Shown here: positions 1 to 58,133 of the stretch, in pieces | Layout of the letters: each line of letters starts with the position of its first letter | Numbering within the stretch: position 1 is the first letter of the stretch | DNA from: a virus | Lineage: Duplodnaviria > Caudoviricetes | IMG/VR virus record: IMGVR_UViG_3300037258_000356 | Coordinates: 1-58,934 of that record | DNA: 58,934 bases | Direction: 5' to 3' (one strand) | Position numbers and translations under genes: made by a program | Notes under the pieces: generated by a model | The model's database searches: none | Told to the model about the DNA's origin: nothing | What the model saw: only the letters and a program-made list of their open reading frames with translations

Positions 1-94
1 GGATGCCTACCGAACGGCAGACGACCGGAGAATGCGTCTACTTGCCATGCATCCCTAGCATAGCGATGCTACCTGCTGTAAAGGGATAATCGCC
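1..94 (+). mobile_element. Right end of a second, truncated copy of the IS1595-family element
   Basis: 1-94 is identical to 57991-58084 and ends in the right terminal IR (...AAGGGATAATCGCC). Confidence 0.9.
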
Positions 95-1021
95 GAAGTT
101 GGTGACCTTGCACAGCAGCTCGTAGCGCTGCCGGCGACGTAGAACGTCCCAGCCTTTCTCGCTTGAGTGGCCGTCCGCTTCGACGCCTTTCACGGCGGCG
201 CGCCACACCTGCTTGCGCATCGTGACCAGGCCGGCGAGTGCGGCCGCGACCTGGTGCGGGTGGACGTGCGGGTGCTTCTCGAGCTGCTGGTAGTGCTGCA
301 CCGCCGCGCGCTCCGCGGGGAGCAGAACGGCGAGCGGATTCGGCTTCGGCGGCGACGCTTTCCTCGTTGACCATTGGCCGTAGTCGGCGGCGACAGCCTC
401 GTCGATGTCGAAGCCGTTCAGGTACTGCGCCTGGTGCACCTGGGCGCGCGGCTCCCACTCGAGCGGATGCCCTTCCGACGACCATGCGGACGTCTGGAAG
501 CAGAAGTCGATCAGCTCCTGGCCGAAGAGCTCCTGCGCCGTCGCGAGGCCGCCGTACGCGCCTCTGGCGCCTTTCTGGCCGTCGTGAAGCTGCAGCGTCC
601 TGGCTGCGTACCCGCGGAAGTACGGCGTGATCTGCGACGGCTCGAGGGTGTCATCGAAGTCGACGGCGGCGAGGATCGGCCGGCCCTTCGGCATGCCGGC
701 CGCCCACGCGAGCGGAAACCAGGTGCTCGCATCCTCCTCGCCCGCAGCCGTGCCTTGGAGGGCACGACTGGCGGTCAGCTCACCGCAGAGAACGATGTCG
801 TAGCCGAGGCTCGAGAGTTCCTCGACCTCAGCGTGCGTGATGCCCTTCGGGTCGCCCTCGAAGCTCGGCGCGTACCGGATGACGAAGCTGCCACGCGGGC
901 TGAGCGACTCAAGGATCGCCCGTGCCTGGAGCGGCGTCATCGCGTAGTAGTCGATTCCCGACGCTTCGAACTGAGCCTTGGTCCACGCGCGGACGCCCTG
1001 GCGAACGGTGACGGCGCTCAT
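38..1021 (-). CDS. Endolysin, DUF1906/Rv2525c-like glycoside hydrolase; C-terminal tail read from IS sequence
   Basis: Start MSAVTVRQG with ATGA overlap on the holin stop; GIDY...FVIRY...AVDFD...GAYGG...QTSAWS motifs; downstream of holin. Confidence 0.75.
   Translation of the reverse strand: MSAVTVRQGVRAWTKAQFEASGIDYYAMTPLQARAILESLSPRGSFVIRYAPSFEGDPKGITHAEVEELSSLGYDIVLCGELTASRALQGTAAGEEDASTWFPLAWAAGMPKGRPILAAVDFDDTLEPSQITPYFRGYAARTLQLHDGQKGARGAYGGLATAQELFGQELIDFCFQTSAWSSEGHPLEWEPRAQVHQAQYLNGFDIDEAVAADYGQWSTRKASPPKPNPLAVLLPAERAAVQHYQQLEKHPHVHPHQVAAALAGLVTMRKQVWRAAVKGVEADGHSSEKGWDVLRRRQRYELLCKVTNFGDYPFTAGSIAMLGMHGK
95..102 (+). repeat. 8-bp target site duplication GAAGTTGG, copy 1
   Basis: Directly follows the IS right IR; the same 8-mer at 54406-54413 directly precedes the IS left IR; 8-bp duplications are typical of IS1595. 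Confidence 0.9.
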
Positions 1022-1494
1022 GCGCCTGGTGCCTGGGCTACCGCCGGAGCCGCCTCGACCGGCGTGACGGGCTGCGGCGGCTGCGCGGCGGCTTCCTGCT
1101 GGTCGCTGGGAAGGTTGAATCCGAGCTGCTTGAGAATCTCCGACGGGTCCTTGACGTCCTGCAGCGCGTCGGAGAGCAGCGCCTTGATGTCGGCGGTGGT
1201 GGGGAGCTTGTCGATACCGATCTTGCCGGCGACGTTCGACGCGAGCTGGTCGAGGTCGATCGACTCGGGGGTGATGCCGGTGGTGCTCTTGATCGCGGTG
1301 ACGGCCTTGATCGCGGTGCGCGACGCGGCGAGGGCGATGCCGCTGATGACGCTCCACTTCGCTGCCGCACCGTGCGAGAGCGACGCGGGGTTGACGAGCG
1401 AGACGATCCACGGTGTGACCGCGGCGGCGGCGAGAATGATGCCTTCGAGGGTGCGCACAGCCTTGGTCAGCGGGGCGCTGAGCTTCGGTATCAC
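1018..1494 (-). CDS. Holin-like membrane protein
   Basis: Two N-terminal hydrophobic segments, AAGGA RBS, immediately upstream of the endolysin. Confidence 0.6.
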   Translation of the reverse strand: MIPKLSAPLTKAVRTLEGIILAAAAVTPWIVSLVNPASLSHGAAAKWSVISGIALAASRTAIKAVTAIKSTTGITPESIDLDQLASNVAGKIGIDKLPTTADIKALLSDALQDVKDPSEILKQLGFNLPSDQQEAAAQPPQPVTPVEAAPAVAQAPGA

Positions 1495-1531
1495 TGCTAG
1501 GTCCTTTCGGAGGAGGAGAGGCGCTTGCGGC

Positions 1532-1963
1532 TTAGTGGCTGGCGTGCGGGTCGCTCGCGCACGGAAGGTCTGGAAGGACGAACGGGTGCAGCTTCTCGAG
1601 CGCGGGGTTCGCGATCTCGGCTTCGACGAGCGCGTCGAGGACGCTGCGTGCGAGGTGGGCGTTGGCGGTGTCGCCGGGGATCTCGCTGTTGATGACGCCG
1701 AGCTCGGTGCGCAGCTGCTTCGGCGTGGCTGGCGCGTTGAAGATGCGGAGGTAGTCGATGACGCCGTCGACGGAGCAGGAGAAGTGCGCGTTCGTTTGCG
1801 CCTGATCGTGGTGGTGGTTGTTGATGTAGAGGACGAGCGCGAGGACCATCACGGTCAGACCGATGCTGACGAGAGTGAGCCAGCCGTAAACGGTCACGAG
1901 CGCGCGCGGGATGGGCAGCTGCTCGCGCGGCGTTCTTTTCCTGCGCGGCGGCGTTGGCGTCAT
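1532..1963 (-). CDS. Single-TM membrane protein (lysis cassette)
   Basis: MTPTPPRRKR basic N-terminus followed by one TM segment; ATGA overlap with the upstream gene. Confidence 0.55.
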   Translation of the reverse strand: MTPTPPRRKRTPREQLPIPRALVTVYGWLTLVSIGLTVMVLALVLYINNHHHDQAQTNAHFSCSVDGVIDYLRIFNAPATPKQLRTELGVINSEIPGDTANAHLARSVLDALVEAEIANPALEKLHPFVLPDLPCASDPHASH

Positions 1964-2160
1964 CGTCTGCGTTCCCTCCAGACTGCTGCGTCGATCGCGA
2001 TGACCGTGAGGACGGTCACGGAGGCGAGGACGTAGCCTTCGGTGTGGCAGAACCGCCACGGCACGAGCGCGACAAGCACCCCGTACGCGGCGGCGGCCGC
2101 GGCGGCGAAAGCAAGGATGCCGCGCCGGCGCCGGTAGATGCGGTGCAGCGCCCGGGTCAC
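1960..2160 (-). CDS. Small 2-TM membrane protein
   Basis: GTG start overlapping the upstream stop; two hydrophobic stretches. Confidence 0.45.
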   Translation of the reverse strand: MTRALHRIYRRRRGILAFAAAAAAAYGVLVALVPWRFCHTEGYVLASVTVLTVIAIDAAVWRERRR

Positions 2161-2381
2161 ATGATCCTCCGGCTGACCGCGTCGGCGAACTTGCCGCCGA
2201 TCGCGAGGGTGACGCCGGCGCCGAGGACGTAGGGCCTGTCGAGCCTGTCGAACAAGGTCTCGTAGGCGATGACGAGCATGCCGAGCGCCTGGGGGACGAG
2301 CGGCCACCACCACGGGACGCGGTGGCGAGGCTCCTCCTCTCGGGCTGGCCTTGGGGCCTGGGGACGGCGCGGCTGCGTCAT
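2157..2381 (-). CDS. Small 2-TM membrane protein
   Basis: 74 aa with two hydrophobic stretches, coupled to its neighbours. Confidence 0.5.
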   Translation of the reverse strand: MTQPRRPQAPRPAREEEPRHRVPWWWPLVPQALGMLVIAYETLFDRLDRPYVLGAGVTLAIGGKFADAVSRRIM

Positions 2382-2708
2382 TCATCCGGCGCGTTCGGCA
2401 TCGGGATCCCCCTTCGCAGCAGCAGCATGCGTTTGCTCGCGGTGCGCGGTGTCAGCGGCGAGCTGCGCTAGCGACGCGCAGCCCTGCCCGAAGTCGGTTG
2501 CGGCGTTTGCGTAGAGCGAGATGATCGCGACGAACGCGACGTCTCTGAACAGGCTTTGCGTAAACGGGACCTTGACGAGGTAGAGCACGATGAGCGCGGT
2601 CCAGATGACGGCGCGCACGAAGCCGCTGATGACGAGGATGAGCGCGACGTGGCGCTGCCGGCGGACGTGACTGTGGAGGCGGTGAGCGCGGAGCAGTACG
2701 CGGCTCAC
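2382..2708 (-). CDS. 2-TM membrane protein
   Basis: 108 aa with two TM segments; GTGA overlap with the tail fibre gene. Confidence 0.55.
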   Translation of the reverse strand: MSRVLLRAHRLHSHVRRQRHVALILVISGFVRAVIWTALIVLYLVKVPFTQSLFRDVAFVAIISLYANAATDFGQGCASLAQLAADTAHREQTHAAAAKGDPDAERAG

Positions 2709-3697
2709 GTGTTGCGAACCTCGTAGTAGATGTAGGCGTTCTGAGCCTGAATGCCGCCAGCGGCCGCGGACGCACAGTATTCGCCGGTGAGTGTGTGCAC
2801 GCCGGCGTTGAGCTGATTATTGGCAAGCACGGCGCCCGAGGTCACAACGGCGAATCGTTTGAGGACCAGGCCGCCGGGTGCTGCGGTGCCGAGGGCGGTG
2901 GTGATGCTGCCCATGTTGGTGGAAATCATGGGGTTGACGGCTGTGCCATCCACCACCAGCGCCGCCATGATGTTGTTGCCGTTCGCCACGATGGCCGGGT
3001 AGAACCTGACTACGAGGACTTGCCCGGCCAGTAGAGATGGTGTGGTGACGCTGAGTCCGGCGATGGTCTGCGGTGAGTTGCTTGCCGTGCCGGAGGCTCC
3101 GCTGTCGTAGTCGATGCCGCTCACGGGAAGACCGGGCACCGTGCCGGTCTGGGCGACGGACCGCGCGTCCTGCGACGTCGAGAGCGAGTAGGTGCCGGAC
3201 GTGTTGAGAATCACGACGTTCATCAGCCGGTACCGGCCGGACGCGACCGCCGGGGGGTTGGCGAGCGCTAGCGCGCTGGTGTTCTGATCGGTGCCTTTCG
3301 CGGACAGTGCAACGGACGCGGTGGCACCCCACGTTCCGCCGACGAGGTCGATCCCGACCGTCGCGTATTTCCCTGACGCGGGAAGCGACGGCGTAGCGGA
3401 GTAGCTGCCGGTGGGGATGGCGTTGCGAACGAGCACGCCGGATGAGAGGGCGAGGTACGCGTTGCCGGCGGCGATGCCGGTGAGCGAGACGACACCGGCG
3501 CTTGAGACCGCAGGGTTGGCGACAAGGCCGGCGCCGGCGGCCACGACGCCGGCGAGGAGCAGGTCGTTGGCGAGCTCGGGAACGATGACGTCGAGGGCTG
3601 CGGCCATGTCGGCGAGGCCCTGCGCAAAGTTCGACCCGTTGTTCGCGGAGGTCGGGTAGGGGATGCCGAGGAGGCTGGTGTCGGTCTCGGTGGCCAC
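2705..3697 (-). CDS. Tail fibre / receptor-binding protein
   Basis: LGIPYP N-terminal motif, Ala/Gly/Ser/Thr-rich, last gene of the baseplate block. Confidence 0.6.
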   Translation of the reverse strand: MATETDTSLLGIPYPTSANNGSNFAQGLADMAAALDVIVPELANDLLLAGVVAAGAGLVANPAVSSAGVVSLTGIAAGNAYLALSSGVLVRNAIPTGSYSATPSLPASGKYATVGIDLVGGTWGATASVALSAKGTDQNTSALALANPPAVASGRYRLMNVVILNTSGTYSLSTSQDARSVAQTGTVPGLPVSGIDYDSGASGTASNSPQTIAGLSVTTPSLLAGQVLVVRFYPAIVANGNNIMAALVVDGTAVNPMISTNMGSITTALGTAAPGGLVLKRFAVVTSGAVLANNQLNAGVHTLTGEYCASAAAGGIQAQNAYIYYEVRNT

Positions 3698-3709
3698 TGC
3701 GCTCCCTTG

Positions 3710-4483
3710 CTAGGTGACGTCTGCGAGTTGCGCGACCGCGAGCTGCGCGGTGATCGCGGAGAAGTTCCGGGTGTACTGGGCGAGCAGCGGGGCGCCGGCG
3801 ACGCCGCCGATGATGTTCACGAGGATGCCGGCGGGTTTGACGGCGTCGATCGCGGCGAGCAGCGCCGTGCTGTTCCCGGACGGCGTGAGTTGTGCGGTGT
3901 TGACGACGACGGCGATCTGGTAGGCGTCAGCGGCGAGCGTTGATGTGGACCGCTCGTACAGCTGGTACTGGCTGGTGATCGCGATCTCGGTGAGGTTTGT
4001 TGTCGCGAATGTCGCGCCGCTGGTGAACGAGCTCGTCGTCAGGTAGTAGACGGGCGAGCCGGGTGTCGCGGCGTAGGAGACGATCACGCCGGACGCGTAG
4101 GCGGTGTTGGGCTGCCAGACGGTGCTGATGTTGCGCTCGATGGCGGAGCGGATGGATGCGGGCGTGCCGCGGTGCATGCCGGCCTCGGCCTGGATGAGTG
4201 CGCGCGCGGTCGCGTCGTCGGTGCCGTCGGGGATCGACACGCCGACGAACTGGCCGAGGTAGGGGAGGTCGGCGGTCGGGCACTTTGTGACGTCGAACAG
4301 GCTGCCCCAGCCGGGGACGTAGTCGTCGTCGCCGTCGGTGCCTTGTTCTGCGACGAGGGTGTAGACGGGGTCGAACATTGAGCCCCATGCGTCGCAGAAG
4401 ATGGCGAGCGCGTCGTTTTGCGCGGCGGGCGGGAATTCGTCGTAGAGCAGCTGCCCGTACGGGCTTTCGATGACGAACGACAT
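3710..4483 (-). CDS. Baseplate wedge protein, P2 gpI-like
   Basis: CPTADLPYLGQFVGV...RGTPASIR...KPAGI motifs; follows baseplate J. Confidence 0.75.
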   Translation of the reverse strand: MSFVIESPYGQLLYDEFPPAAQNDALAIFCDAWGSMFDPVYTLVAEQGTDGDDDYVPGWGSLFDVTKCPTADLPYLGQFVGVSIPDGTDDATARALIQAEAGMHRGTPASIRSAIERNISTVWQPNTAYASGVIVSYAATPGSPVYYLTTSSFTSGATFATTNLTEIAITSQYQLYERSTSTLAADAYQIAVVVNTAQLTPSGNSTALLAAIDAVKPAGILVNIIGGVAGAPLLAQYTRNFSAITAQLAVAQLADVT

Positions 4484-4538
4484 CAGCGCGGCTCAGCGAG
4501 CTTGGGAGTTGTTCGCAGGCACCGGTAGAGTGGAACGG

Positions 4539-5231
4539 ATGCCAAGGCTGATTCCTCCAGGGACTCGGTTCGGGCGGCTCGTTGTGAGCGAACCGACTGG
4601 GGAGATCAAGTGGCGCTACTACCTCGTCTATAGCTGCATCTGCGACTGCGGCAACACGGCCGAGGTCCCCTCAGGATCTCTACGGAGTGGGACCACCCAG
4701 TCATGCGGGTGCCTCAAGATCGAGCTCGCGGTCGAGCGCCTCCCCGCAATGACGTCAACTGCGACTCATCACGGACACAGCCGTCGCCGACGCAAGCACC
4801 CGCTCTACAGGGTCTGGCAGCAGATGCGCGACCGCTGCAACAATCCGCGCAATCCCGCTTACCACAACTACGGTGGACGCGGAATCAGCGTCTGCGAGCG
4901 ATGGGAAAGCTTCGCGAGCTTTCTTTCCGACATGGGCGAGCGCCCGGATGGAATGACCCTCGACCGCATCGACAACGACGGCAACTACGAGCCCGGAAAC
5001 TGCCGCTGGGCAACTCGCAAACAGCAAACCGAGAATCAGCGGCCAGCAACGTTCACTCGCGAAAACCGTCCCCGGGGCGAAGCGGCGCCAGCGGCAAAAT
5101 TCTCCGACGAGCAAATTCGATGCTTGCGCAACGACTGGGCCACAGGGGCGTACCAGCAGAGAGATCTCGTCGCGCGGTACGGCATCAGCGCAAGTCAAGT
5201 CAGCCGTCTTGTTCGTGGCCTGTCGCGCTAG
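4539..5231 (+). CDS. Free-standing HNH homing endonuclease with C-terminal HTH
   Basis: FGRLVV...CICDCG...SCGC; YGGRGISVCERW...TLDRIDNDGNYEPGNCRWAT; TAGAGT -10-like element 7 nt before the ATG. Confidence 0.85.
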   Translation: MPRLIPPGTRFGRLVVSEPTGEIKWRYYLVYSCICDCGNTAEVPSGSLRSGTTQSCGCLKIELAVERLPAMTSTATHHGHSRRRRKHPLYRVWQQMRDRCNNPRNPAYHNYGGRGISVCERWESFASFLSDMGERPDGMTLDRIDNDGNYEPGNCRWATRKQQTENQRPATFTRENRPRGEAAPAAKFSDEQIRCLRNDWATGAYQQRDLVARYGISASQVSRLVRGLSR

Positions 5232-6655
5232 ACGGAAGACCCCTGCACCGTTGGTGTGGTCAAGTCCGTTTGTGGCAGCGGCGCGGGTCCGGGGAGCGTG
5301 AGGTCGCTGGTGCCGGTCGGTGATGCGGTGAACCCGATCGCGAGGCCCGAGGATCCCGGTGGCACGTAGTCGACGCCGGGGACGTTTTCGATGAGGCCGA
5401 GGACCTTGTTGTAGCGGACGGTCGCGAAGCCTTGGACGCTGTTGAGCCACGGGGACTGCCCTGCGGCGTTTGCGGCGTTCTGGGGGTTGCCCCACAGGAA
5501 CGGGTTGAGGTAGGTGACGAGCGCCGCGTCGATGTTCGCGATGACGGCTGAGGCGCTGTACCCGGGAAGGATGTGCGCTTCGTAGGTGATGTAGACCTTG
5601 GTGAATGTCGGGGCGATGACGAAGACCTGGAAGTTGATCTCGCGGAAGCTTTCGAGCCATGTCGCGATGTCGCCCATGTCGGTCGAGTCGAGGGCGTTGC
5701 CGTTGGGGTCGGTGACGAAGACGGTGACGCAGCGGCTGTTGCCTGTGGTCCCGGCCTGGATCGAGACGCCGGAGGCTGTAGCGGTCGCGGCGGCGCTCAT
5801 GACGAGCGTGCTGGCGCCGGTGTTGGTGGAGACAACGGTGGTCCCGGCGGGGATCCCGTTGCCGGTGAGGACGGTGCCGGCGGCGACGTCGGTGAAGCTT
5901 GAGACGGAGCTGAGGGTGGTGCTGCTCGAGGTCGTCGATGCGGTGAACGTCGCGGCGTCGGGGTTGTACCCGTCGATCGCGGTCGCGCGGCCGATCGCGG
6001 TGGCGGACGCGATGATGCCGGACGGGATCGCAAGGGTTTTGACGGCGTAGTCGTTGGCGGTGATCGGCGCCTCGTTTAAAAGCGACAGCGCCTGGGCGAG
6101 CATGTCCTGGTAGGCGGGGTCGGTTTGCTGGTCCTGGCCTCCGGCGGTCTCGCCCGTGACGCTGATGGAGGTGACCCAGTCCAGGGCGTCGACGAGAGCG
6201 ATGGGGCTCGACAGGCCGTTGTAGGCGCTGCCGGTGTCGGAGGCGACGAGGTTGACCGTCGCGGTGCTCGATCCGGAGGCGACGATAACGTCGGTTTCGA
6301 CGTAGAACGCGTAGTCGGCGATCGTGACCTGCGTGCCACCGGGGATCGTGTGCCCGAGAGTGTCGGCCAGGGTCCAGGTGCTCGCCACGACTGCTGCGGC
6401 GCCCTGCTGGTAGGGGGTGTCGAGGAGCTGCGTTCCGAACTCGCGGAAGATCGCGGAGGGGACTTGGGCAGCGACGTTTGTGAGGTCGGCGGCTTGCGCG
6501 CCGCCGACGTTTAGAAGGACGATCTCCTGGTTGCCTTCGTTCGGCACGTAGCCGACGACGCCGTTCGCGGCGAGGTTCGCGGCGAGCCTGGCGATGGCGG
6601 TGTCGGTGATCGTTGCGGCGTCGGTGGTGAGCGCGATGTCGAGAAAGTCGGTCAC
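5228..6655 (-). CDS. Baseplate J/gp47 family protein
   Basis: TIPGGTQV...GSAYN...AGGQDQQTD...PITANDY...VPGVDYV motifs; synteny. Confidence 0.85.
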   Translation of the reverse strand: MTDFLDIALTTDAATITDTAIARLAANLAANGVVGYVPNEGNQEIVLLNVGGAQAADLTNVAAQVPSAIFREFGTQLLDTPYQQGAAAVVASTWTLADTLGHTIPGGTQVTIADYAFYVETDVIVASGSSTATVNLVASDTGSAYNGLSSPIALVDALDWVTSISVTGETAGGQDQQTDPAYQDMLAQALSLLNEAPITANDYAVKTLAIPSGIIASATAIGRATAIDGYNPDAATFTASTTSSSTTLSSVSSFTDVAAGTVLTGNGIPAGTTVVSTNTGASTLVMSAAATATASGVSIQAGTTGNSRCVTVFVTDPNGNALDSTDMGDIATWLESFREINFQVFVIAPTFTKVYITYEAHILPGYSASAVIANIDAALVTYLNPFLWGNPQNAANAAGQSPWLNSVQGFATVRYNKVLGLIENVPGVDYVPPGSSGLAIGFTASPTGTSDLTLPGPAPLPQTDLTTPTVQGSSV

Positions 6656-7011
6656 TCACTGCTCCCGTTCACGGCGACGTCGATGACGATGTCCCATGAG
6701 CCTGGGGCGACATCCGGGCCTTGGGTGATGGTCAGCAGTGCGCGCGGCTCAAGCGCGTTGATCGCGTCGGCGATCGCCTGCACGTCCATCGGCGTTGACG
6801 CGAAGAGCGGGTCGGGAATTCCGAAGGTGGGCTGGTCGGCCCGGTAGCCCTGCGGGGTGTCGCAGATCAGGTGCACGCATGCTTCGATTTCGTCGAGGGT
6901 GTCCTGCTCGACTACGACGGCGCCTTGCGCGGTGATCTGGAGGGGGTAGGCGAGGTGCGGGGTGTCGACGGGCTGCTCGCTCAAGACACCGCCTGAGATC
7001 ACGACAGGCAT
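6652..7011 (-). CDS. GpW/gp25-like baseplate protein
   Basis: TPQGYRADQPTFGIPD...EPRA motif. Confidence 0.8.
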   Translation of the reverse strand: MPVVISGGVLSEQPVDTPHLAYPLQITAQGAVVVEQDTLDEIEACVHLICDTPQGYRADQPTFGIPDPLFASTPMDVQAIADAINALEPRALLTITQGPDVAPGSWDIVIDVAVNGSSE

Positions 7012-7041
7012 CAGGTCCTCCCGGGCGCACGGACGCCAGCC

Positions 7042-7461
7042 CTACGGGTTGTAGTAGGGCAGCTTGTAGAGCGTGCCCGAGACGTTTATCTCCAGGAAGC
7101 CGGCTGGACTGCTGGGCAACGTTCGGGTGCCCGCGGTTGCCGTCGTCGCCGTCGGGCTCGTGAAGTTCGCGACCCCCGTGCTTTCCTGCTCCCACCACAC
7201 GACGTATGAAGCGCCTCGGTTGTCGTAGGCGACGAGAACGTCGGCTCCTTGTTGCGGTAGCGCGGACCCGCTGCCGGCGAGCCACTGGCATGGCATCGAC
7301 AGATCTGGCGATAGGTCTGGGATGACCACGTAGAGATCGTCGCCCGGTGCGGCTGGCGCCGGTTTGCTTGTACTGACGTAACCGGCGAAGAGCACGGGTT
7401 TGGTTGCGGGCGCCGGGGGCCGGGGGCCGCCTTGGCGGACGAGCTGCGCGGGATCAGCCAA
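7042..7461 (-). CDS. Baseplate spike, gpV-like
   Basis: OB-fold-like LPQQGADVLVAYD; position upstream of gp25. Confidence 0.6.
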   Translation of the reverse strand: MADPAQLVRQGGPRPPAPATKPVLFAGYVSTSKPAPAAPGDDLYVVIPDLSPDLSMPCQWLAGSGSALPQQGADVLVAYDNRGASYVVWWEQESTGVANFTSPTATTATAGTRTLPSSPAGFLEINVSGTLYKLPYYNP

Positions 7462-7471
7462 CAGGCGCCTC

Positions 7472-9721: not shown

Positions 9722-9731
9722 CGCCGGACGG

Positions 9732-12409: not shown

Positions 12410-12424
12410 CGGCGCCTCCTCGAA

Positions 12425-13553: not shown

Positions 13554-13563
13554 TTGGCCCCTC

Positions 13564-46638: not shown

Positions 46639-46841
46639 GGCATCACGTCCTCTGGCTGTAGCGCGTGGCGGCGGGCGTGTTCGGCACGCGCGCAGGAGAG
46701 AACGAAGAGCACGGTGCCGTCGGTTGCGTCGCGGAGGGATTGGACGAAGTCGGTGCGCGCCGCCTGATACCCGAGCGCCTCGAGCAGCTCCGAAGACAAC
46801 TCCGGCTTCGCGTCGACGACGTCAGGCTCGAGGACCGTCAT
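46635..46841 (-). CDS. Hypothetical protein
   Basis: ATGA overlaps on both sides. Confidence 0.4.
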   Translation of the reverse strand: MTVLEPDVVDAKPELSSELLEALGYQAARTDFVQSLRDATDGTVLFVLSCARAEHARRHALQPEDVMP

Positions 46842-48853: not shown

Positions 48854-49571
48854 CGGTGTCCTCCGTTCCGCTCGGCGTGGTGACCGGGGCGCGGTCGAGG
48901 ACCTCGCGGATCGACTCGGCGTACGCGCGCGCGCGGTCAGCCTCGTTCGGGTTCAGTCGCTCCGCGAGCCTGGGGACGGCGTACGCGTATTTGATGCCGT
49001 CGGCGTTGGTGTCGGTCGCGAGGGTGAGCCGGGTGACGACCTGGTTGAGTTGCAGCATCGAGTTCGTCAGGTTCAGCCGGTACTTGCGGGCTGAGGCGAG
49101 ACTCTTCGGCGGCAGCGTCAACACCAGCGGCAGCAGCGAGTCCTCGACGATGACGAACCACTGCTCCATCTGCTTGCACGCCTGGCCGCGGCCCGATTTG
49201 TCGGAGCCGAACTGGCTGAACGGGCACTCCTCGCACAGGCCGCCCGGGTCGCCGATGCCGATGCGGTTGTCGGGGCTCGAGCATTGCGGCGGCTGGGAGC
49301 CTTGGAAGTCGCCGGGCCAGTAGGAGCGGATCAGCTTGAAGTGGATGACGATCCCCTCGATGGTCTGCGCGGGCCGGTCGCCCTCGAGCGACGGGATCTC
49401 CCACGTTGTGCCGCCGCTGCCGGGGATCCGCACTCGCGGGAGGTCGAAGGGGGAGAGGGGCTGGCCGCCGAGGTTGGCGGCGATGATGTCGTGCACCTCA
49501 GCGGGGCTTCGACTCAGCGCGACGTACCCGTCATGCTCGGCGTGGCTGGGTTTCTGGAGGTCGGTACTCAC
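48846..49571 (-). CDS. ssDNA-binding/annealing-like phage protein
   Basis: RVRIPGSGG...PQCSSPD...CEECP..QFGS..GRGQACK...LPPKS. Confidence 0.65.
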   Translation of the reverse strand: MSTDLQKPSHAEHDGYVALSRSPAEVHDIIAANLGGQPLSPFDLPRVRIPGSGGTTWEIPSLEGDRPAQTIEGIVIHFKLIRSYWPGDFQGSQPPQCSSPDNRIGIGDPGGLCEECPFSQFGSDKSGRGQACKQMEQWFVIVEDSLLPLVLTLPPKSLASARKYRLNLTNSMLQLNQVVTRLTLATDTNADGIKYAYAVPRLAERLNPNEADRARAYAESIREVLDRAPVTTPSGTEDTDA

Positions 49572-49598
49572 TGTTTCCTTCCTGCTACGTGCGCGCGG

Positions 49599-50027
49599 TC
49601 AGCTGCGGACGCGTAGCTGATGGGTGTCTGAAAGCTCGATGAAGCCCTGAAGGTCCCCGGGCAGCAGATCCGTGAGGTCGGTGACGGGGTCGTGCTCGTC
49701 CGCGCGGCGTTTTGCCTGCTCGCTGAAGTAGCTGGACAGCGACTGGACGTTGAAGCCGAGCTCCGCGAACTCGGCGAGCTCGCCGCCGTGCTGCTGCAGC
49801 GCGCGCGCGGCGTCGGCTTTCGCGGTTGCCGGCCGGGCCCAGATGCGGCGGGTGATGTGGACGAGCTTGCCGCTGGCGGCGTGGCGTTTGCTGCTCACGC
49901 CCTCCTGTGCGAACTCGTCGAGCAGCTCGGTTTCGAGAATGTCGAGCTGCTCTTTGACGCCGCGGAGTTGCCGTTCGAGCGCGGCCTTCTGGTCGGCGAG
50001 GTCGACGAACTCGTCGAGGCGGCTCAT
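49599..50027 (-). CDS. Hypothetical coiled-coil replication-module protein
   Basis: Lies between the SNF2 helicase and the SSB-like gene. Confidence 0.55.
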   Translation of the reverse strand: MSRLDEFVDLADQKAALERQLRGVKEQLDILETELLDEFAQEGVSSKRHAASGKLVHITRRIWARPATAKADAARALQQHGGELAEFAELGFNVQSLSSYFSEQAKRRADEHDPVTDLTDLLPGDLQGFIELSDTHQLRVRS

Positions 50028-51652
50028 GAGCATCTCCCAGAGGTCTTTCGCAGGCCGTCTGTTTCGAAGGGGGTGACGGTCCCCGCACCGGGTTCTCCCC
50101 GGTCACCATGGGCGGCCTGCGAAAGCTGGGTGAGGACGGCGCCGATGACCTCCTGGCGGCGGCGGAGCGCCCCGTATATGGCGTGGTCGATCGTTCCGGC
50201 CGCCAGGAGGTGGGTGTAAACAACGCGGCGCTGCTGCCCGGGACGGTGCAGCCGCTTGCGCGACTGGAGGTAGTCACCGAGCGAGAAGTCCAACGAAAAG
50301 TAGATCGCGTGCCGCGCCCTGGTGAGGTCGACGCCGACGCCGCCGCTTTTCAACTGCGCACCAAGCACGTCGATGCCCGGGCTCATGGTGGCGTGGTCGG
50401 TCATGCCGTCACGCGCCCGACCGGACAGCTCGCCGTACCGGCGCCCCTGCGTCTCGCAGACCGCTTTGACCTGGTCGAGGTCGTGGTGAAAGCGGCAGAA
50501 GACGACGACCGGCTCATCGACCGGCAGGTCGTCGAGGACGTCGGCGAGCAACCTGGTTTTCTCGGGCGCGGGAAGGATCTGCCTGGTAGCGCCGGTGTCG
50601 GCGTCGACGGCGAACCCGTTCGCGGCCTGTGCGAGGCGAAGCACGTTGACCATGGCGTTCGCGGCGGTGACGACGCCGCCGTCGATGTCGGCGATCAGGT
50701 GCTTCTCGAGCTCGTAGTAGATCCGCTCCGTTGGTGCCTCGAGGTGAACGGTGCGGTGCTGATCGACAGGGTCCGCGAGTCCAAGCGTGCGGTCGAGCGC
50801 GGCCTGGTCGACCTGGAACATCAACAGGGCGATGCGCTGCGTGAGCTCGCCGAGCCGGTCGGCGCGGACGCCGTCGTAGATCGGCTGACCGGCCGGGCCG
50901 CGCAGGTAGATCGCTTCGCCCTGGTCGGTGACGCGCAGCACTTTGGGGGCGCCGTAGCGGGCACGGAACGCGGCGTGGCTGGTGCCTAACACCGAATCGT
51001 CGATCGCGCGGTATTGCGCGTAAATGTCCAACGGGCTGTGCGGCATCGGGGTGCCGGTGAGCGCGAGCGCGCGGCCGCCGTACATGCGGGTGCGGCGGCA
51101 GATGCGGTGCGCAAGCTTCGACTGTTTGCCGCCGGCGGCCTTGAGGCGGTGTGATTCGTCGAGGACGACGAGGTCCCACTCAATGTCGAGCAGGCAGTCG
51201 GCCATCGCTGTTTGTATCGACGCTTCGTAGTTGACGATCGCCGCGAACGGCCGGTCGCCGGCCATGGCAAGGCGCTGGCGCAGCGCGCCGGCTTTGCGCG
51301 CGGTCGTGGCATTGCGAAGCGGCCCGCGCTTACCGGCGACCTCTCCGGCCCATGTCACCCACGGTGTGGCGGCGTGCTCGGTGAGCTGTGTTGGCCAGAC
51401 GTCGACGACGCTGCGCGGACACAGGATCAGCGCCCGGCGCGCGTTGGCGCGTTGGGCGATCTCGATCGCGATCTTCGTTTTGCCGCCGCCCATGGGGACG
51501 GCGACCATGAACCCGCGGCGCTCGAGCGCGACCTGGACGGCTTCTTGCTGGTGCGGCCATAGCGGCGCGGGTGGCGTTGTGAGCACCCAGACGGGGGCGG
51601 CCGGGGCCTGCACAACCTCGGCGACCGGGGGAGAGAGAGCCGGGGTGCTCAC
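50024..51652 (-). CDS. SNF2-like SF2 helicase
   Basis: MGGGKT, LDESH, LTGTP, GGVGVDL, QSRKRLHRPGQ. Confidence 0.9.
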   Translation of the reverse strand: MSTPALSPPVAEVVQAPAAPVWVLTTPPAPLWPHQQEAVQVALERRGFMVAVPMGGGKTKIAIEIAQRANARRALILCPRSVVDVWPTQLTEHAATPWVTWAGEVAGKRGPLRNATTARKAGALRQRLAMAGDRPFAAIVNYEASIQTAMADCLLDIEWDLVVLDESHRLKAAGGKQSKLAHRICRRTRMYGGRALALTGTPMPHSPLDIYAQYRAIDDSVLGTSHAAFRARYGAPKVLRVTDQGEAIYLRGPAGQPIYDGVRADRLGELTQRIALLMFQVDQAALDRTLGLADPVDQHRTVHLEAPTERIYYELEKHLIADIDGGVVTAANAMVNVLRLAQAANGFAVDADTGATRQILPAPEKTRLLADVLDDLPVDEPVVVFCRFHHDLDQVKAVCETQGRRYGELSGRARDGMTDHATMSPGIDVLGAQLKSGGVGVDLTRARHAIYFSLDFSLGDYLQSRKRLHRPGQQRRVVYTHLLAAGTIDHAIYGALRRRQEVIGAVLTQLSQAAHGDRGEPGAGTVTPFETDGLRKTSGRCS

Positions 51653-52050: not shown

Positions 52051-52349
52051 CGGTAGGACTCCGGGTCAGCCCAGTCGAATGGCGGCCGGCGTTGCACGCC
52101 CTGGACCTCGGTGCGGGGGAAGAGGATCACCTGTGCGGCGCGCTCCTGGTGCTGTTCGCGCGTCATTCGCTGGTAGGCGTCTTGGTGGCCGCGGTAGCGG
52201 CGCACCTCTGACCGGAGGCCGGCCACGACGCCTACCGCGAGCGCGATAGCCCACAGCACCACGACGGGAACGACGCCGAAGATCACGAGGCCGATCAGCG
52301 CCTCGAGCGCGACGAGCACGCTGGCTGATGCCCGGGCGCGGGCGCTCAT
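52044..52349 (-). CDS. Small membrane protein
   Basis: MSARARAS start overlapping the cro stop; hydrophobic hairpin. Confidence 0.5.
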   Translation of the reverse strand: MSARARASASVLVALEALIGLVIFGVVPVVVLWAIALAVGVVAGLRSEVRRYRGHQDAYQRMTREQHQERAAQVILFPRTEVQGVQRRPPFDWADPESYRW

Positions 52350-52576
52350 GCGGCGACGGCCTCGGTCCAGCCCATGAGGTAGGCGACGTCGACTTCGAGG
52401 AGCTCGGCGAGCGCGAGCTTCTTCGCGTCCGGGATCTCGCCGGCGGTGCGCTCCCAGCGGTAGACAGTAGATTGGTCTACGAGGAGCGCAGCGGCGACCT
52501 GTGAGCGAAGAAGCCCGCGGGCGGTGCGGAGCTCTTCGATCCGGTTTGCCGGGGCGTTTGCATCTGGCACTTGCAC
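52346..52576 (-). CDS. Cro-like XRE HTH regulator
   Basis: NRIEELR...VAAALLVDQSTVYRWE...LAELLEVDVAYLMG. Confidence 0.85.
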   Translation of the reverse strand: MQVPDANAPANRIEELRTARGLLRSQVAAALLVDQSTVYRWERTAGEIPDAKKLALAELLEVDVAYLMGWTEAVAA

Positions 52577-52718
52577 GTCGCGCAAGGTAGCATCCGCATT
52601 GGACGGAATGCAAAGCGTGGCACGCATGACACCGGAAACTGCGGAAAGAACACATAACACGGTGCGCAGGAGCGTGGCGCAAGCGCGCCGTGGGAGCGCG
52701 TCCTACAGTGCGCGGCAG

Positions 52719-53096
52719 GTGGCTGACCGCGAGCCCGAGGACACCATGGTGTACTGGCTGGCGCTCGCTGCGAGCGAGCTACGTCGCGCCGCGGGGCGCA
52801 AGATGGTTCACGTCGCGGCGCAGGCGAGCGTCGACCAATCGACTATCTACCGCTTCGAGCAGGGCAGCAGTTACCCGCAAGACCCCGACATGATCATCGA
52901 GGCCTACGCGGGTGACTTGGACATCGACGCGCCTGCGATTTGGCGCTACGCAACCGACCTATGGCAGGAGCATCTCAGCGGTGCGCGGACAGCTGACGTG
53001 CTGGCAGAGCATGTAGCCGAGACACTCCAAGACCTTCGGCAAGCGCAGTCGCAGTTACAACGAGGCCGCGGCGCCCAGGGTCGTGGAGGTCGATGA
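52719..53096 (+). CDS. CI-like XRE HTH repressor (start uncertain)
   Basis: Divergent from cro; VAAQASVDQSTIYRFEQG. Confidence 0.7.
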   Translation: MADREPEDTMVYWLALAASELRRAAGRKMVHVAAQASVDQSTIYRFEQGSSYPQDPDMIIEAYAGDLDIDAPAIWRYATDLWQEHLSGARTADVLAEHVAETLQDLRQAQSQLQRGRGAQGRGGR

Positions 53097-54405: not shown

Positions 54406-54413
54406 GAAGTTGG
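54406..54413 (+). repeat. 8-bp target site duplication GAAGTTGG, copy 2
   Basis: Abuts the IS left IR; matches 95-102. Confidence 0.9.
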
Positions 54414-54425
54414 GGCGATTATCCC

Positions 54426-54454
54426 TTGACAGTAGGTAACAGTCGTGGGATACT
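54426..54454 (+). promoter_or_regulatory. Sigma70-type transposase promoter, probably leaderless
   Basis: TTGACA-17 nt-GATACT, 6 nt before the ATG; the -35 lies inside the IR. Confidence 0.7.
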
Positions 54455-54460
54455 TCCCTC

Positions 54461-55408
54461 ATGTCGAAGGTGGATCGCAACAATCCGAAGCGCTCAACGG
54501 CGTCGGAGTCGACGTACTCCCTGATGGAGTTCACGCGCGAGTTTCCGACCGATGCTGCGTGCCTTGAGCACCTGTGGCGCTCAAGGTTCGCTCCCGATGG
54601 CTCGCACGCGGACTGCCCAAAGTGCAAGCGGGAGCGGAAGTTCCACAAGGTAGCAGCGCGCCCGTCATGGTCGTGCGACACCTGCGGCCACCACATCCAC
54701 CCGCTCGCAGGGACAATCTTCCACAAGTCCGCTACGTCGCTGCACCTGTGGTTCTACGTCCTCTACCTGATGACTAGCACTCGCTGCGGGATCTCCGCGA
54801 AGCAGGTTGAGCGCGAGATCGGCGTCACTTACAAGACCGCTTGGCGGATGTGCAACCTGATCCGCAACCACCTGATGGCCCAGGAGTTCGCCGACAAGCT
54901 GACCGGCGAAGTTGAGGCTGACGAGACCGCTTACGGTGGCCGTCCGAAGGTGGCCGTGACTCGCGGGATGACGATGGCTCAGGCGCAGATCTTCGCGAAG
55001 GCCCGGAAGGTCGGCATCGTCGCGATGGTCGAGCGTGGCGGCAACGTCCGCGCCTACGTTCAGCCGCGCGAAGGCGCGCTAGAGACCGTGAGTCTGCACG
55101 TAGAGCCGAACGCCACCGTCTACACCGACGAGTGGGCCGGGTATCGCAAACTGCATTTCACCCATCCCGATCACCGCACGATCCGCCACACCGACAAGGT
55201 GTACGCGACCGGAGACACGCACACGCAGACCATCGAAGGATGGTTTGGGAACGTCAAGAACGGGATCGCCGGCAACTATCACGGCGTGTCGGTCAAGTGG
55301 CTTCAGTCGTACGTCAACGAGTATGTATGGCGTTACAACCACCGTCGTCGCGACGGGCGCTCGATGTTCGCGGAGCTGCTTGCGCGTGCCGTCGTCGTGC
55401 AGCCCTGA
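54461..55408 (+). CDS. IS1595-family DDE transposase
   Basis: Zn ribbon CPKC/CDTC, GTIFHKS, VEADETAYGG, YTDE, HTQTIEGWF..VK, YVNEY.WRYN. Confidence 0.95.
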   Translation: MSKVDRNNPKRSTASESTYSLMEFTREFPTDAACLEHLWRSRFAPDGSHADCPKCKRERKFHKVAARPSWSCDTCGHHIHPLAGTIFHKSATSLHLWFYVLYLMTSTRCGISAKQVEREIGVTYKTAWRMCNLIRNHLMAQEFADKLTGEVEADETAYGGRPKVAVTRGMTMAQAQIFAKARKVGIVAMVERGGNVRAYVQPREGALETVSLHVEPNATVYTDEWAGYRKLHFTHPDHRTIRHTDKVYATGDTHTQTIEGWFGNVKNGIAGNYHGVSVKWLQSYVNEYVWRYNHRRRDGRSMFAELLARAVVVQP

Positions 55409-55452
55409 TCGCTCGCTATTCCTGGGCGGAGCGAATAGCTTCCTCGCTCGAG

Positions 55453-56202
55453 GTGCTGTTCTTCATCGACGAGACTTGGCAGAAGATCGACGGCCATGAA
55501 ATTGCGGCACTCGGGGGTGTCGCTATTCGGCTGAAGAGCTACAACGCGTTCTGTCGGGAGATGTTCGCCGTAAAGAAGAACATCCTCGGCGCGGTTGAGC
55601 TACGTGACGCCGAACTGAAAGGGAAGAAGTGCTTCGCGAACCGCTCGTTTCGTACCCGGGCGGATGGCGAGCGATCAAAGCTCCTAGATGCAGCCGATGA
55701 GTTGTTTAACGCGCTCGACAAATACGGTGCCAAAACCTTCGTAATTTGGACGGCTGCCCCATCGCTCGTCAGTCTGCGGAGCGCGCGGACCACGGCGCTG
55801 TCCAAGCCATACAAGGGGCTTCTGTACGACTTCCGTGCACTCATGCGGGGAGCCGCTGCAAATCGACTCGGCTCCTTGAATTTCGATCAGCGCGACATGG
55901 GCAGCGACGAGGCGGCCACTTGCGCCCTCCAGAACTATCTCGTGCGCACCCGAGGCGACTGGGACAGGACCTTCGTCACGGTGCCGAGCTTCACGGTGAG
56001 TGCTGTTAGCCCCGGACTCCAAGCCGCGGACCTCGTTGCGTACCTTGGAGCACACTTTTCGAGACCGAGCGTTCGCCCCGAACTCGGGCCGTACTTAGAG
56101 CGCGTAACCGCCCTCCAACACGAATGGCAGCGCGGACGCACGACGCGGCGATCGATCCGAGAGGTCCGGGCAGAACAAGAGGCCGGCGGGCTTTCGCCCT
56201 AA
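55453..56202 (+). CDS. DUF3800-like protein
   Basis: N-terminal FFIDET, ELKG, FD, and LQAADLVAY motifs. Confidence 0.75.
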   Translation: MLFFIDETWQKIDGHEIAALGGVAIRLKSYNAFCREMFAVKKNILGAVELRDAELKGKKCFANRSFRTRADGERSKLLDAADELFNALDKYGAKTFVIWTAAPSLVSLRSARTTALSKPYKGLLYDFRALMRGAAANRLGSLNFDQRDMGSDEAATCALQNYLVRTRGDWDRTFVTVPSFTVSAVSPGLQAADLVAYLGAHFSRPSVRPELGPYLERVTALQHEWQRGRTTRRSIREVRAEQEAGGLSP

Positions 56203-56234
56203 GCGCCGTCGATGAGACGACACACCGGCCCCTT
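56177..56234 (+). ncRNA. Candidate DUF3800-associated three-way-junction RNA
   Basis: Outer stem AAGAGGCCGG/CCGGCCCCTT enclosing GGGC-TTTC-GCCC and GTCG-ATGAGA-CGAC. Confidence 0.45.
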
Positions 56235-56293
56235 CTGGCACGCAGAGTACCACCCGACACCCGTCGAAGCGGCCGCTGGTTTTTCGCGTGCAA

Positions 56294-56653
56294 CTACGGC
56301 GTTTTCTTTGTCGTCCGCTGGCCGAACGACGGCGGCGCGACCTTCTCGAGGTCGCGCAGGAACGCGTCACGTGTCGGGATCGGGATCTCGACCGGCTCGC
56401 CGCGGTTCGGTTCCGTGAACTGCGTCGGGCCCTGTAGCGCGTACGCGCGATCCCACTCGGAGCGCGCACGATCGCGCTCGTCATCGGCAAGCTTTCGCTG
56501 AGCCTCGGCCTGCGCGTGCTCGCCGCGCTCGTCAAGGAACACCGCGCCCTGCTCGAACACGGCGACCCGGCGTTCGTGCGCCTCGGCCGCGGCGCGATGA
56601 CGTTCGGCGTCCTTCAGCGCTTCTGGTGTCGGCTCAGGTTTGTCCGTGGTCAT
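56294..56653 (-). CDS. Hypothetical IS passenger protein
   Basis: Helical N-terminus; VEIPIPTRDAFLRDLEKVA C-terminus. Confidence 0.55.
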   Translation of the reverse strand: MTTDKPEPTPEALKDAERHRAAAEAHERRVAVFEQGAVFLDERGEHAQAEAQRKLADDERDRARSEWDRAYALQGPTQFTEPNRGEPVEIPIPTRDAFLRDLEKVAPPSFGQRTTKKTP

Positions 56654-56846
56654 CGGCGTCTCTCAGTCTTGCAGCAGCGCAGAGTTCTAGCCATCGAGTT
56701 GCCGAAGTGGCAAATGCTTTGCGCGCTGCCGGTTCGTCGGCGGCAATGACGCCCAGCCGGATCGCCTCGCCGGGGGCGCTCACGGCCAGGCAGCCGCCGC
56801 GCGGACGAGGAAGAACGATTGCTTGGGGAGTGGTGAGTGAATGCAT
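56634..56846 (-). CDS. Small HicB-like-fold hypothetical protein
   Basis: GGCLAVS...LGVIAADEPAARKAF...RWLEL beta-beta-beta-alpha pattern. Confidence 0.35.
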   Translation of the reverse strand: MHSLTTPQAIVLPRPRGGCLAVSAPGEAIRLGVIAADEPAARKAFATSATRWLELCAAARLRDADDHGQT

Positions 56847-56974
56847 GCACCGCAGCGTGGCGCGCAAACGCCTACCCTGCAAATACGCAGAGGGTTAACG
56901 CGAAGCTCGACTTGCCTTCGCGGTAGCCGATGCTGTAGCGTGTTTCGTATGAACGCGAAATCGAAAGCTACCCC

Positions 56975-57649
56975 GTGACTGTCGTTCGCGATGGTCAAGC
57001 GCCGTACCCACCGATTGAGGCCATGATGGCTGTGATCGAGGGATACCGAACGAAGCATCCGCACACCCCGTTCACGATCGAGAACATTCAGCCGCTTGGG
57101 GTTGCGCCGTCGATCGCGCAGCGCACACACCAGGGTCTCCGACTCCTGGATCTCATTGACGACGAGGGCGAGCCCACCCCGGCACTGGATGTTCTGCGAG
57201 AGGCAACGACTGCGGAGTTCCCCGCGCGGCTTGCCGAAATCGTACGGGCCGCCTATGCCGAGGTATTTGCGTACAAGGACCCCGCAACCGACTCGCCCGA
57301 AGATATGGCCGAGATCTTCCGGTTCTACCGGCCTCCATCGCAGCACGCCCGGATGATCCGATTCTTCTACGGGATCTGCGAGCGCGCCGGCATCATCGAG
57401 AGCCGTCCTGCGATCGAGGGGTCCGGCAAGTCAAGTGTGCGGCGCGCTCCGGCATCGAAGGGTAAGCCGAGGGCTACCCGCGCGGAGGCACAGAACCGAA
57501 CGCCGCTACCACCTGCGTCGAGTATCGAACAGATGAAGGCCAAATACCTTGAGGTACTTCTCAACCGCCTCCAACAAACGGATGGCGAGTTCGACACCGA
57601 CCTGGCCGATCGGATCGAACGTCTGATGGGCGTAGCGCCAACCTCATGA
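56975..57649 (+). CDS. DUF5343-like protein
   Basis: APYPP...LRLLDLIDDEGEPT...AY..VF...RFF..ICE.AGI. Confidence 0.65.
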   Translation: MTVVRDGQAPYPPIEAMMAVIEGYRTKHPHTPFTIENIQPLGVAPSIAQRTHQGLRLLDLIDDEGEPTPALDVLREATTAEFPARLAEIVRAAYAEVFAYKDPATDSPEDMAEIFRFYRPPSQHARMIRFFYGICERAGIIESRPAIEGSGKSSVRRAPASKGKPRATRAEAQNRTPLPPASSIEQMKAKYLEVLLNRLQQTDGEFDTDLADRIERLMGVAPTS

Positions 57650-57659
57650 CGCGAGGTCA

Positions 57660-58061
57660 CGAACGATGTTGAGTACCACCGGGGCGCGGTGCAGTCCGCT
57701 GTCGCGTCTCACAATCGCATAGGCCGAGCACCCCGAGCGGTCCGAGAAGTGGACCGGAACGCGCCCGAGGCACCCAAGATCGAGGTCCAGGCCCTTCCAG
57801 GGGTCGCTGCGGTTTAGTCCCGCCTCTCGGGCGAGCCGCAGCGAGCGAGTAGCGTCGCCCTGGGCCTCGTTCCTGTGCCGCAGTCTATCGAGCCGCCAGG
57901 CCGCCTCCGACGGCTGCCAGATGGATTGCGTGTCCGGGCTCTGTCAGCCCTACGCGGCCGTGGGAGCGTCACCGTTACGGCGGTCCAAGGGGATGCCTAC
58001 CGAACGGCAGACGACCGGAGAATGCGTCTACTTGCCATGCATCCCTAGCATAGCGATGCTA
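57660..58061. ncRNA. Candidate large structured RNA at the IS right end
   Basis: About 400 nt without an ORF, containing many nested stems. Confidence 0.35.
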
Positions 58062-58133
58062 CCTGCTGTAAAGGGATAATCGCCCTATTGAGTCACCTGT
58101 CAACCGGGCCGCGCTCCGAAATAGCATCCGAAC

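What the first reader, a model, noticed from the sequence alone, without database searches (positions are those of the whole stretch)
1..58092. Whole phage captured between two direct IS1595 copies, with the target duplication on the inside
Seen: the order is IS right end (1-94), GAAGTTGG, phage, GAAGTTGG, complete IS (54414-58084), host-like genes. The 8-bp duplication faces the phage at both junctions, whereas the host-side flank is CTATTGAG. Known: IS1595 elements make 8-bp duplications, and replicon fusion leaves direct IS copies at both junctions. Inference: the IS inserted into a circular phage genome, which then fused with the chromosome by replicative transposition or IS-IS recombination, bypassing its own integrase. 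The result is a 54 kb composite-transposon-like lysogen that could excise by recombination between the IS copies. An assembler joining a circular IS-bearing phage to a chromosomal IS copy would give the same sequence.
Basis: partly seen in the sequence, partly recalled or inferred. Interest (0 to 1): 0.8.

Follow-up and report, generated by a model that had tools for sequence, protein, structure and literature searches.

The report
Insertion sequence shared by phage and host
The same 3.7-kb jumping gene sits in a soil bacterium's chromosome and in the genome of one of its temperate phages, and this contig crosses from phage to chromosome through it, but the data cannot show whether the two DNAs are really fused.

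Summary
Window 1-94 equals 57991-58084. GAAGTTGG flanks the phage on both inner sides, and CTATTGAG follows the full 3671-bp IS.

The IS is a bona fide IS1595-family element with three passenger ORFs. The 54.3-kb insert is a complete temperate myophage. Its integrase and an unbroken attP lie mid-map.

New evidence: a Solirubrobacteraceae MAG carries the identical IS as a simple chromosomal insertion, hostL-CTATTGAG-IS-CTATTGAG-GNAT. It has no phage DNA. The MAG also holds the phage's likely attB, a tRNA-Val, on another contig.

So two separate 8-bp-duplicating insertions exist, one in the chromosome and one in the phage circle. The window joins them across a 3.7-kb exact repeat.

In the probable source run, k=31 contigs give phage 11.2, host flank 12.1 and IS 21.2, roughly 1:1:2. 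Nothing links DNA across the IS, however. The whole record is one contig that starts with a 94-nt IS stub and ends 850 bp into host DNA, as an assembly-graph walk would.

My odds: separate molecules joined by the assembler 0.5, real IS-mediated cointegrate 0.4. Either way this is standard IS biology.

The parts
1..94 (+). Stub of the IS right end at the contig start, identical to 57991-58084
95..102 (.). GAAGTTGG, target-site duplication copy on the phage side of the IS right end
38..1021 (-). Phage endolysin (Rv2525c-like glycoside hydrolase domain). Its last 2 codons and stop are replaced by 19 IS-encoded codons.
1018..29808 (-). Late region: membrane or holin-like ORFs, baseplate-like protein, tape measure (10610-12409), tail sheath (13564-15186), major head (24639-25865), portal (26697-28286), large terminase (28321-29808)
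39029..39046 (-). attP core candidate, 18 nt identical to the tRNA-Val 3' end copy plus its native downstream flank in the MAG, unbroken in the window
39925..40986 (-). Tyrosine integrase (phrog_1 1.1e-42; PF00589)
44992..51652 (-). Replication genes: two helicases and a primase/polymerase-like protein
52346..53096 (.). Divergent pair of XRE-type HTH regulators, a lysogeny-switch candidate
54406..54413 (.). GAAGTTGG, second copy of the phage target-site duplication
54414..58084 (+). Complete 3671-bp IS1595-family transporter IS. IR-L is 54414-54441 and IR-R is 58057-58084.
54461..55408 (+). IS1595-family DDE transposase, 315 aa
   Evidence: PF12762 1.6e-29; NF033547, 164 bits against a cut-off of 75
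55453..56202 (+). Passenger ORF with DUF3800
56294..56653 (-). Passenger ORF of 119 aa with no family hit
56975..57649 (+). Passenger ORF with DUF5343, and a weak PADLOC PDC-M34A hit
58085..58092 (.). CTATTGAG, right copy of the chromosomal target-site duplication. The left copy is seen only in the MAG.
58134..58556 (+). Host GNAT acetyltransferase
58553..58934 (-). Host ORF cut by the contig end, with no family hit

Best explanation
Two independent insertions of one IS1595-family element exist. One is a simple insertion in the chromosome of a Solirubrobacteraceae soil bacterium, between an HTH/AHSA1 regulator gene and a GNAT gene, with target duplication CTATTGAG. The other is in the circular (attP-intact) genome of a temperate myophage of that host, two codons before the endolysin stop, with target duplication GAAGTTGG. 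In the metagenome assembly the two identical copies collapse into one 3.7-kb node. The contig is then one walk through the graph: phage, then IS, then the chromosomal right flank. The 94-nt IS stub at the contig start is what remains of the other exit, IS to phage start. On this reading the phage-IS-GNAT join was made by the assembler and the two DNAs are separate molecules. The insertions and their duplications are shown. That the join is non-physical is inferred. I hold this only slightly above the cointegrate reading.
For: The MAG contig (37,160 bp) carries the identical IS with CTATTGAG on both sides and ordinary host genes on both flanks. It has one full IS copy and no phage DNA in 3.7 Mb. 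Runs X2 and X3 hold the IS and host flank without exact phage pieces. In X2 the IS depth is 6.9-9.1 against a flank depth of 21.8, with contig breaks exactly at the duplication, so the chromosomal insertion segregates on its own. In X1, contigs break exactly at 54413 and at 58055. This means two contexts exist at each IS end, a graph in which any path across the IS is arbitrary for short reads. Both record ends are contig ends: the right one cuts an ORF 850 bp past the IS, and the left one is a stub inside a repeat. The phage closes on itself with an 8-bp duplication and a restored endolysin stop. One IS1595-family member was reported to form a circular intermediate, so a cointegrate is not a required step (PMC12561309, passages read). 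Earlier follow-ups in this scan read hybrid-flank IS copies the same way.
Against: In the probable source run the depths are phage 11.2, host flank 12.1 and IS 21.2. This 1:1:2 ratio is what a fused single-copy lysogen predicts. For separate molecules it needs either coincidence or a single-copy episome. No ParB_N, AAA_31 or CbiA partition gene was found in the record, and the phage has an integrase with an attP, which makes an episomal life less likely. An integrative phage at host-like depth would normally show attL and attR, yet attP is unbroken. The depths rest on single Logan contigs of 2705, 715 and 237 nt.
Confidence: 0.5

Rival explanations
1. Real IS-mediated cointegrate. In the source population the phage is fused into the chromosome at the GNAT-locus IS, as hostL-CTATTGAG-IS-GAAGTTGG-phage-GAAGTTGG-IS-CTATTGAG-GNAT. 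It would have formed either by replicative transposition of the chromosomal IS into phage DNA, or by RecA-type recombination between a phage-borne and the chromosomal copy. It would be kept as a single-copy lysogen that can leave only by recombination between the two IS copies.
For: The flank pattern is exactly that of a replicon fusion: target duplication inside, donor duplication outside. The general rule comes from PMC7986276 (passages read). Depth in the probable source run is 1:1:2, and no empty-site break occurs at 58085 there. attP is unbroken, and its tRNA-Val match lies on another MAG contig. No partition genes were found. The MAG has only one full IS copy, the one at the GNAT locus, which is therefore the obvious donor.
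Against: No read or contig links DNA across the 3671-bp IS. The left junction with host DNA is not in the record, and both metagenome scans for it found nothing. The contig shape, a stub plus a short host tail, is that of a graph walk. The same four junctions are expected from separate molecules. The simple-insertion form without phage is what other assemblies and runs show. Assembly joins across shared repeats are common, and natural chromosomal phage cointegrates are rarely reported (my recollection).
Confidence: 0.4
2. The phage with its IS is a low-copy extrachromosomal prophage (phage-plasmid). This would explain host-like depth without fusion. It is a sub-case of separate molecules.
For: Depth is about 1:1 with attP unbroken. 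Tyrosine recombinases can also serve as dimer resolvases, as Cre does in P1 (recalled).
Against: No ParB_N, AAA_31 or CbiA match was found in six-frame searches of the record, and the controls rang. The attP core matches a host tRNA-Val 3' end, as expected for an integrating phage.
Confidence: 0.07
3. A composite transposon made of two IS copies moved the phage as cargo into the GNAT locus.
For: Two direct IS ends bracket the phage.
Against: A composite insertion would put the duplication outside both IS copies. Here CTATTGAG already brackets the single IS in the MAG, and GAAGTTGG lies inside.
Confidence: 0.01

Closest known systems
Replicon fusion (cointegrate) by replicative transposition, as described for the IS6/IS26 family, IS1 and Tn3
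   Same: [quoted passage not shown] The new target duplication faces the target replicon. Resolution by homologous recombination leaves one flanked copy in each replicon (PMC7986276, passages read).
   Different: The element here is IS1595-family, whose mechanism is not settled. The fusion itself is not demonstrated. The target is a whole temperate phage and not a plasmid.
IS copies with hybrid flanks from IS-IS homologous recombination, including Hfr-type integration of F and integration of P1 through its IS1 (recalled, not checked in a paper here)
   Same: An episome carrying an IS recombines with a chromosomal copy, giving direct IS repeats with mismatched flanks at each copy.
   Different: The evidence here comes from one metagenomic contig. 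My search for the P1 case in the held library found no relevant paper.
'IScream' IS30-bound prophages (bioRxiv 10.1101/2025.05.09.652943 / PMC12247996, passages read)
   Same: Prophage genomes bounded by IS elements at both ends, likened to composite transposons.
   Different: Those use IS30-family enzymes, lack any other integrase, have one decayed inward copy and form a conserved lineage. Here the two ends are identical IS1595 copies, and the phage keeps its own integrase and attP. It would be a one-off recent event.
IS1595 family insertion sequences, for example ISApl4 (PMC12561309, passages read)
   Same: DDE transposase of the IS1595 type, terminal inverted repeats and 8-bp direct repeats.
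   Different: This element is 3671 bp with three passenger ORFs (DUF3800, a 119-aa ORF, DUF5343), against 712 bp for ISApl4. It comes from an uncultured actinobacterial lineage.

Membership tests
IS1595 family insertion sequence | DDE transposase of the IS1595/ISXO2 type | tested here: met
   PF12762 at 1.6e-29, 103 bits against a cut-off of 27. NF033547 at 164 bits against a cut-off of 75.
IS1595 family insertion sequence | N-terminal zinc-ribbon domain | tested here: inconclusive
   PF12760 at 24.9 bits, just under the cut-off of 25.4
IS1595 family insertion sequence | Terminal inverted repeats | tested here: met
   28-nt ends matching at 25 of 28 positions
IS1595 family insertion sequence | 8-bp target-site duplication | tested here: met
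   CTATTGAG on both sides of the MAG copy. GAAGTTGG on both phage-side junctions.
Replicon fusion / cointegrate | Two complete direct IS copies, one at each junction | tested here: inconclusive
   The right copy is complete. Only 94 nt of the left copy are present, at a contig end.
Replicon fusion / cointegrate | Each copy flanked by one donor-side and one target-side duplication | tested here: inconclusive
   Met for the right copy (GAAGTTGG | IS | CTATTGAG). The host side of the left copy is not in the record.
Replicon fusion / cointegrate | Single molecules spanning host-IS-phage | not testable with these tools
   Only k=31 Logan contigs were available.
Replicon fusion / cointegrate | Depth of phage, host and IS in the ratio 1:1:2 | tested here: met
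   11.2, 12.1 and 21.2 in X1. This is also compatible with separate single-copy molecules.
Composite transposon | Target duplication outside the two IS copies | tested here: not met
   The duplication is inside. The outer CTATTGAG belongs to the single-IS insertion.
Integrase-mediated prophage | attL and attR at the ends with attP split | tested here: not met
   The attP candidate is unbroken at 39029-39046, mid-map. Its tRNA-Val match is on MAG contig C12, and the IS is on C107.
IS-bound 'IScream' prophages | IS30-family transposases at both ends and no other integrase | tested here: not met
   The transposase is IS1595-family, and a tyrosine integrase is present.
Phage-plasmid (episomal prophage) | Partition system (ParA/ParB type) | tested here: not met
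   PF02195, PF13614 and PF01656 gave 0 matches in the record, and the controls rang. Other partition types were not searched.

The most novel reading that the evidence does not exclude
A fully equipped temperate phage, with integrase and attP intact, is held in its host as a single-copy lysogen by fusion through an IS1595-family element and not by its own recombinase. This would form a roughly 62-kb IS-bracketed unit that can leave only by IS-IS recombination. It would be a natural snapshot of the first step by which IS-bound prophage lineages could arise. On induction such a prophage would replicate and package in place, carrying neighbouring host DNA.
Probability: 0.4. Interest if true: 0.55.

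Novelty: new member of a known kind. Interest (0 to 1): 0.35.

Why it matters
If the fusion is real, it shows an integrase-independent route to lysogeny in an uncultured actinobacterial lineage. It would also be a plausible starting point for IS-bound prophages. If it is an assembly join, it is a useful warning: virus-catalogue contigs with host DNA attached through an IS do not prove integration. Either way, three things hold. The identical IS in phage and chromosome, together with the attP-to-tRNA-Val match, ties this phage to a Solirubrobacteraceae host. The data show a recent IS transfer between chromosome and phage. They also document a new 3.7-kb IS1595-family element with DUF3800 and DUF5343 cargo.

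Tried and rejected
- **Close DNA matches.** None were found for phage 95-20000 in the phage collection, nor for the IS in the plasmid collection.
- **Viral contigs.** There were no other records with the IS ends or the phage-side left junction. No relatives of the endolysin or large terminase were found by single-protein queries.
- **Metagenome contigs.** The IS-end pattern and the 34-nt host-left junction both returned 0. The window's own or near records may be left out of these collections, so this says little.
- **Family genomes.** The portal protein found no match at E <= 1e-60 in 301 of 301 genomes searched. No related prophage was therefore available to show the uninterrupted endolysin junction or a normal tRNA-Val integration.
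- **The 13.2-kb element at the MAG's tRNA-Val.** It encodes no relative of the phage integrase by tblastn at E <= 1e-3.
- **Rfam.** No family matched in 54300-58200 at E <= 0.1.
- **Read laying.** Most of the 400-plus loose ends and pieces were not shown. Parts of the IS without cover in X1 are not taken as evidence.
- **Chance 8-mer match.** Rejected. The expected frequency is about 1.5e-5, and the endolysin reading frame closes across the join.
- **Record trimmed from a longer host contig at gene edges.** Rejected. Neither end is a gene edge.
- **Supplementary files.** Those of the papers were not opened. The IScream supplementary tables might list non-IS30 cases.
Full report
**What is in the window**

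The window is the whole record: one 58,934-bp contig, held as a linear virus record with a CheckV completeness estimate of 74.
- Bases 1-94 are identical to 57991-58084.
- A 3671-bp element lies at 54414-58084. Its 28-nt terminal inverted repeats match at 25 of 28 positions.
- GAAGTTGG follows the 94-nt stub at 95-102 and precedes the full element at 54406-54413. CTATTGAG follows the full element at 58085-58092.

**The element**

- ORF 54461-55408 is an IS1595-family transposase. PF12762 scores 1.6e-29, and NF033547 scores 164 bits against a cut-off of 75. The zinc ribbon is just under its cut-off.
- Three further ORFs ride along: DUF3800 (55453-56202), a 119-aa ORF on the other strand, and DUF5343 (56975-57649). 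DUF5343 has a weak PADLOC candidate hit, PDC-M34A at 1.9e-7.
- Eight-bp direct repeats are the family norm (PMC12561309, passages read).
- A promoter-like site lies inside the left inverted repeat, upstream of the transposase.

**The phage**

Nearly all genes of 95-54413 lie on the minus strand.
- Lysis: an Rv2525c-type endolysin at 38-1021.
- Structural and packaging genes: tape measure, tail sheath, major head, portal and large terminase.
- Early and lysogeny genes: a tyrosine integrase at 39925-40986, two helicases and a primase-like gene, and a divergent pair of XRE-type regulators.
- There are no tRNA genes.

The IS sits two codons before the endolysin stop. In the window the ORF runs 19 codons into the IS. 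Read across the second duplication copy, it ends NFPL-stop. The 54.3 kb therefore closes into a circle at an 8-bp duplication. This is a simple IS insertion into a contiguous phage genome.

**The chromosomal copy**

One scan of species-representative genomes with the IS ends hit a single contig. It is a 37,160-bp MEGAHIT contig of a Solirubrobacteraceae MAG.
- The contig holds the IS at 100% identity.
- Its right flank is 100% identical to window 58085-58934 and continues beyond it.
- CTATTGAG lies on both sides of the IS.
- The left flank encodes a hybrid histidine kinase, an MFS transporter and an HTH/AHSA1 regulator.
- The 3.7-Mb MAG has one full IS copy, one 75%-identical transposase fragment, and no phage DNA beyond chance matches of 35-60 nt.

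Among 301 genomes of the family, only this MAG has the full element. Twenty-seven others have matches at E <= 1e-14, mostly to the transposase half at 65-80% identity. The remaining matches in the 117-of-301 tally are short.

**attP**

- Window 39029-39046 (minus strand) is identical over 18 nt to a site on MAG contig C12.
- That site is the 3' end of a partial tRNA-Val copy together with its native downstream bases.
- An intact tRNA-Val(CAC) lies 13.2 kb away and shares 15 nt with the phage site. The two copies bracket another integrated element.
- BLAST alone gives E = 0.08 for the 18-mer. Its landing exactly on a tRNA 3' end, about 0.9 kb from an integrase gene, makes it credible.

The phage thus has an unbroken attP, and its likely attB lies elsewhere in this host than the GNAT locus.

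**Depth and junctions in public runs**

Three soil runs hold parts of window 50000-58934. I laid their k=31 contigs on that stretch.

*X1* is the probable source, so it is not independent evidence.
- An exact 2705-nt phage contig has depth 11.2.
- An exact IS contig starts precisely at 54413 and has depth 21.2.
- An exact contig at 58055-58769 has depth 12.1.
- The break points mean that two contexts meet at each IS end.
- No break occurs at 58085, so no empty chromosomal site is evident.

*X2*
- The IS contigs have depth 6.9-9.1.
- The leftmost IS contig carries 29 non-phage letters upstream.
- The flank contig starts exactly at 58085 and has depth 21.8.
- This pattern is what an occupied site mixed with an empty site would give.
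- No exact phage pieces were listed.

*X3* has low-depth IS pieces, one of which crosses the IS-GNAT junction.

**What this allows**

All four junction types exist. Both models predict this: a cointegrate, or a chromosome with the IS plus a phage circle with the IS. No data here span the 3671-bp repeat.

Points in favour of a real fusion:
- The 1:1:2 depth ratio in X1.
- The unbroken attP.
- The absence of ParB_N, AAA_31 and CbiA genes.
- The GNAT-locus copy is the only full donor copy in the MAG.

Points in favour of an assembler's join:
- The record starts with a 94-nt stub inside the repeat and ends 850 bp into host DNA. A walk through a collapsed repeat at about 11-fold depth would look like this.
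- Other data show the chromosomal insertion without the phage.
- Joins across shared repeats are common, and natural chromosomal phage cointegrates are rare (recalled).

A composite-transposon origin is excluded by the position of the duplications. I put separate molecules at 0.5 and a cointegrate at 0.4. An episomal sub-case (0.07) counts within the separate-molecule share.

**Comparison with what is known**

- The flank logic is that of classical replicon fusion (PMC7986276, passages read), or of IS-IS recombination as in Hfr formation (recalled).
- IS-bracketed prophages have been described for IS30 ('IScream' phages, PMC12247996, passages read). Those lack another integrase and form an old lineage.
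- The transposition mechanism of IS1595 elements is not settled. ISApl4 gave a circular product in inverse PCR (PMC12561309, passages read).
- Searches of the held library with IS1595, cointegrate and prophage terms listed no report of an IS1595-mediated phage-chromosome fusion among the papers shown.

**Verdict**

This is ordinary IS biology with an unusual partner, and the one interesting claim, physical fusion, remains open.

Noticed in passing
window 39029-39046; L016 15214-15285 and about 2006-2024 (G001:C12): The phage attP core matches the 3' end of a host tRNA-Val(CAC). In the MAG that tRNA already carries a 13.2-kb integrated element, bracketed by a 43-nt repeat of the tRNA 3' half. 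The element has no relative of the phage integrase.
   Followed up: partly
window 55453-57649: The IS cargo is a DUF3800 protein, a 119-aa ORF and a DUF5343 protein. DUF5343 weakly matches the PADLOC candidate defence family PDC-M34A (1.9e-7). No Rfam family, including the DUF3800-associated motifs, matched 54300-58200 at E <= 0.1.
   Followed up: partly
window 44064-44470 (ORF 43967-45043, minus strand): About 45 tandem 9-bp units encode a run of AAE/AAG/AAW tripeptides inside a 358-aa ORF that has no PHROG or Pfam hit.
   Followed up: no
window 54413-58449, run X2: In a second soil run the IS has about one third of the depth of the host flank, and contigs break exactly at the duplication. 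The chromosomal insertion therefore appears polymorphic in that population.
   Followed up: partly
window 54426-54454: A sigma-70-like promoter (TTGACA, 17 nt, GATACT with a TG extension) lies inside the left inverted repeat, upstream of the transposase gene.
   Followed up: no
L017 (G203:C19:19474-20468) and 26 other family genomes: Related IS1595-type elements are widespread in this bacterial family, at 65-80% identity and mostly over the left end and transposase. The closest also matches part of the cargo region at 71%.
   Followed up: no
whole window: The catalogue completeness estimate for the record is 74. Yet the phage part closes on itself at the 8-bp duplication and has all the main modules, so the estimate looks too low.
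   Followed up: no
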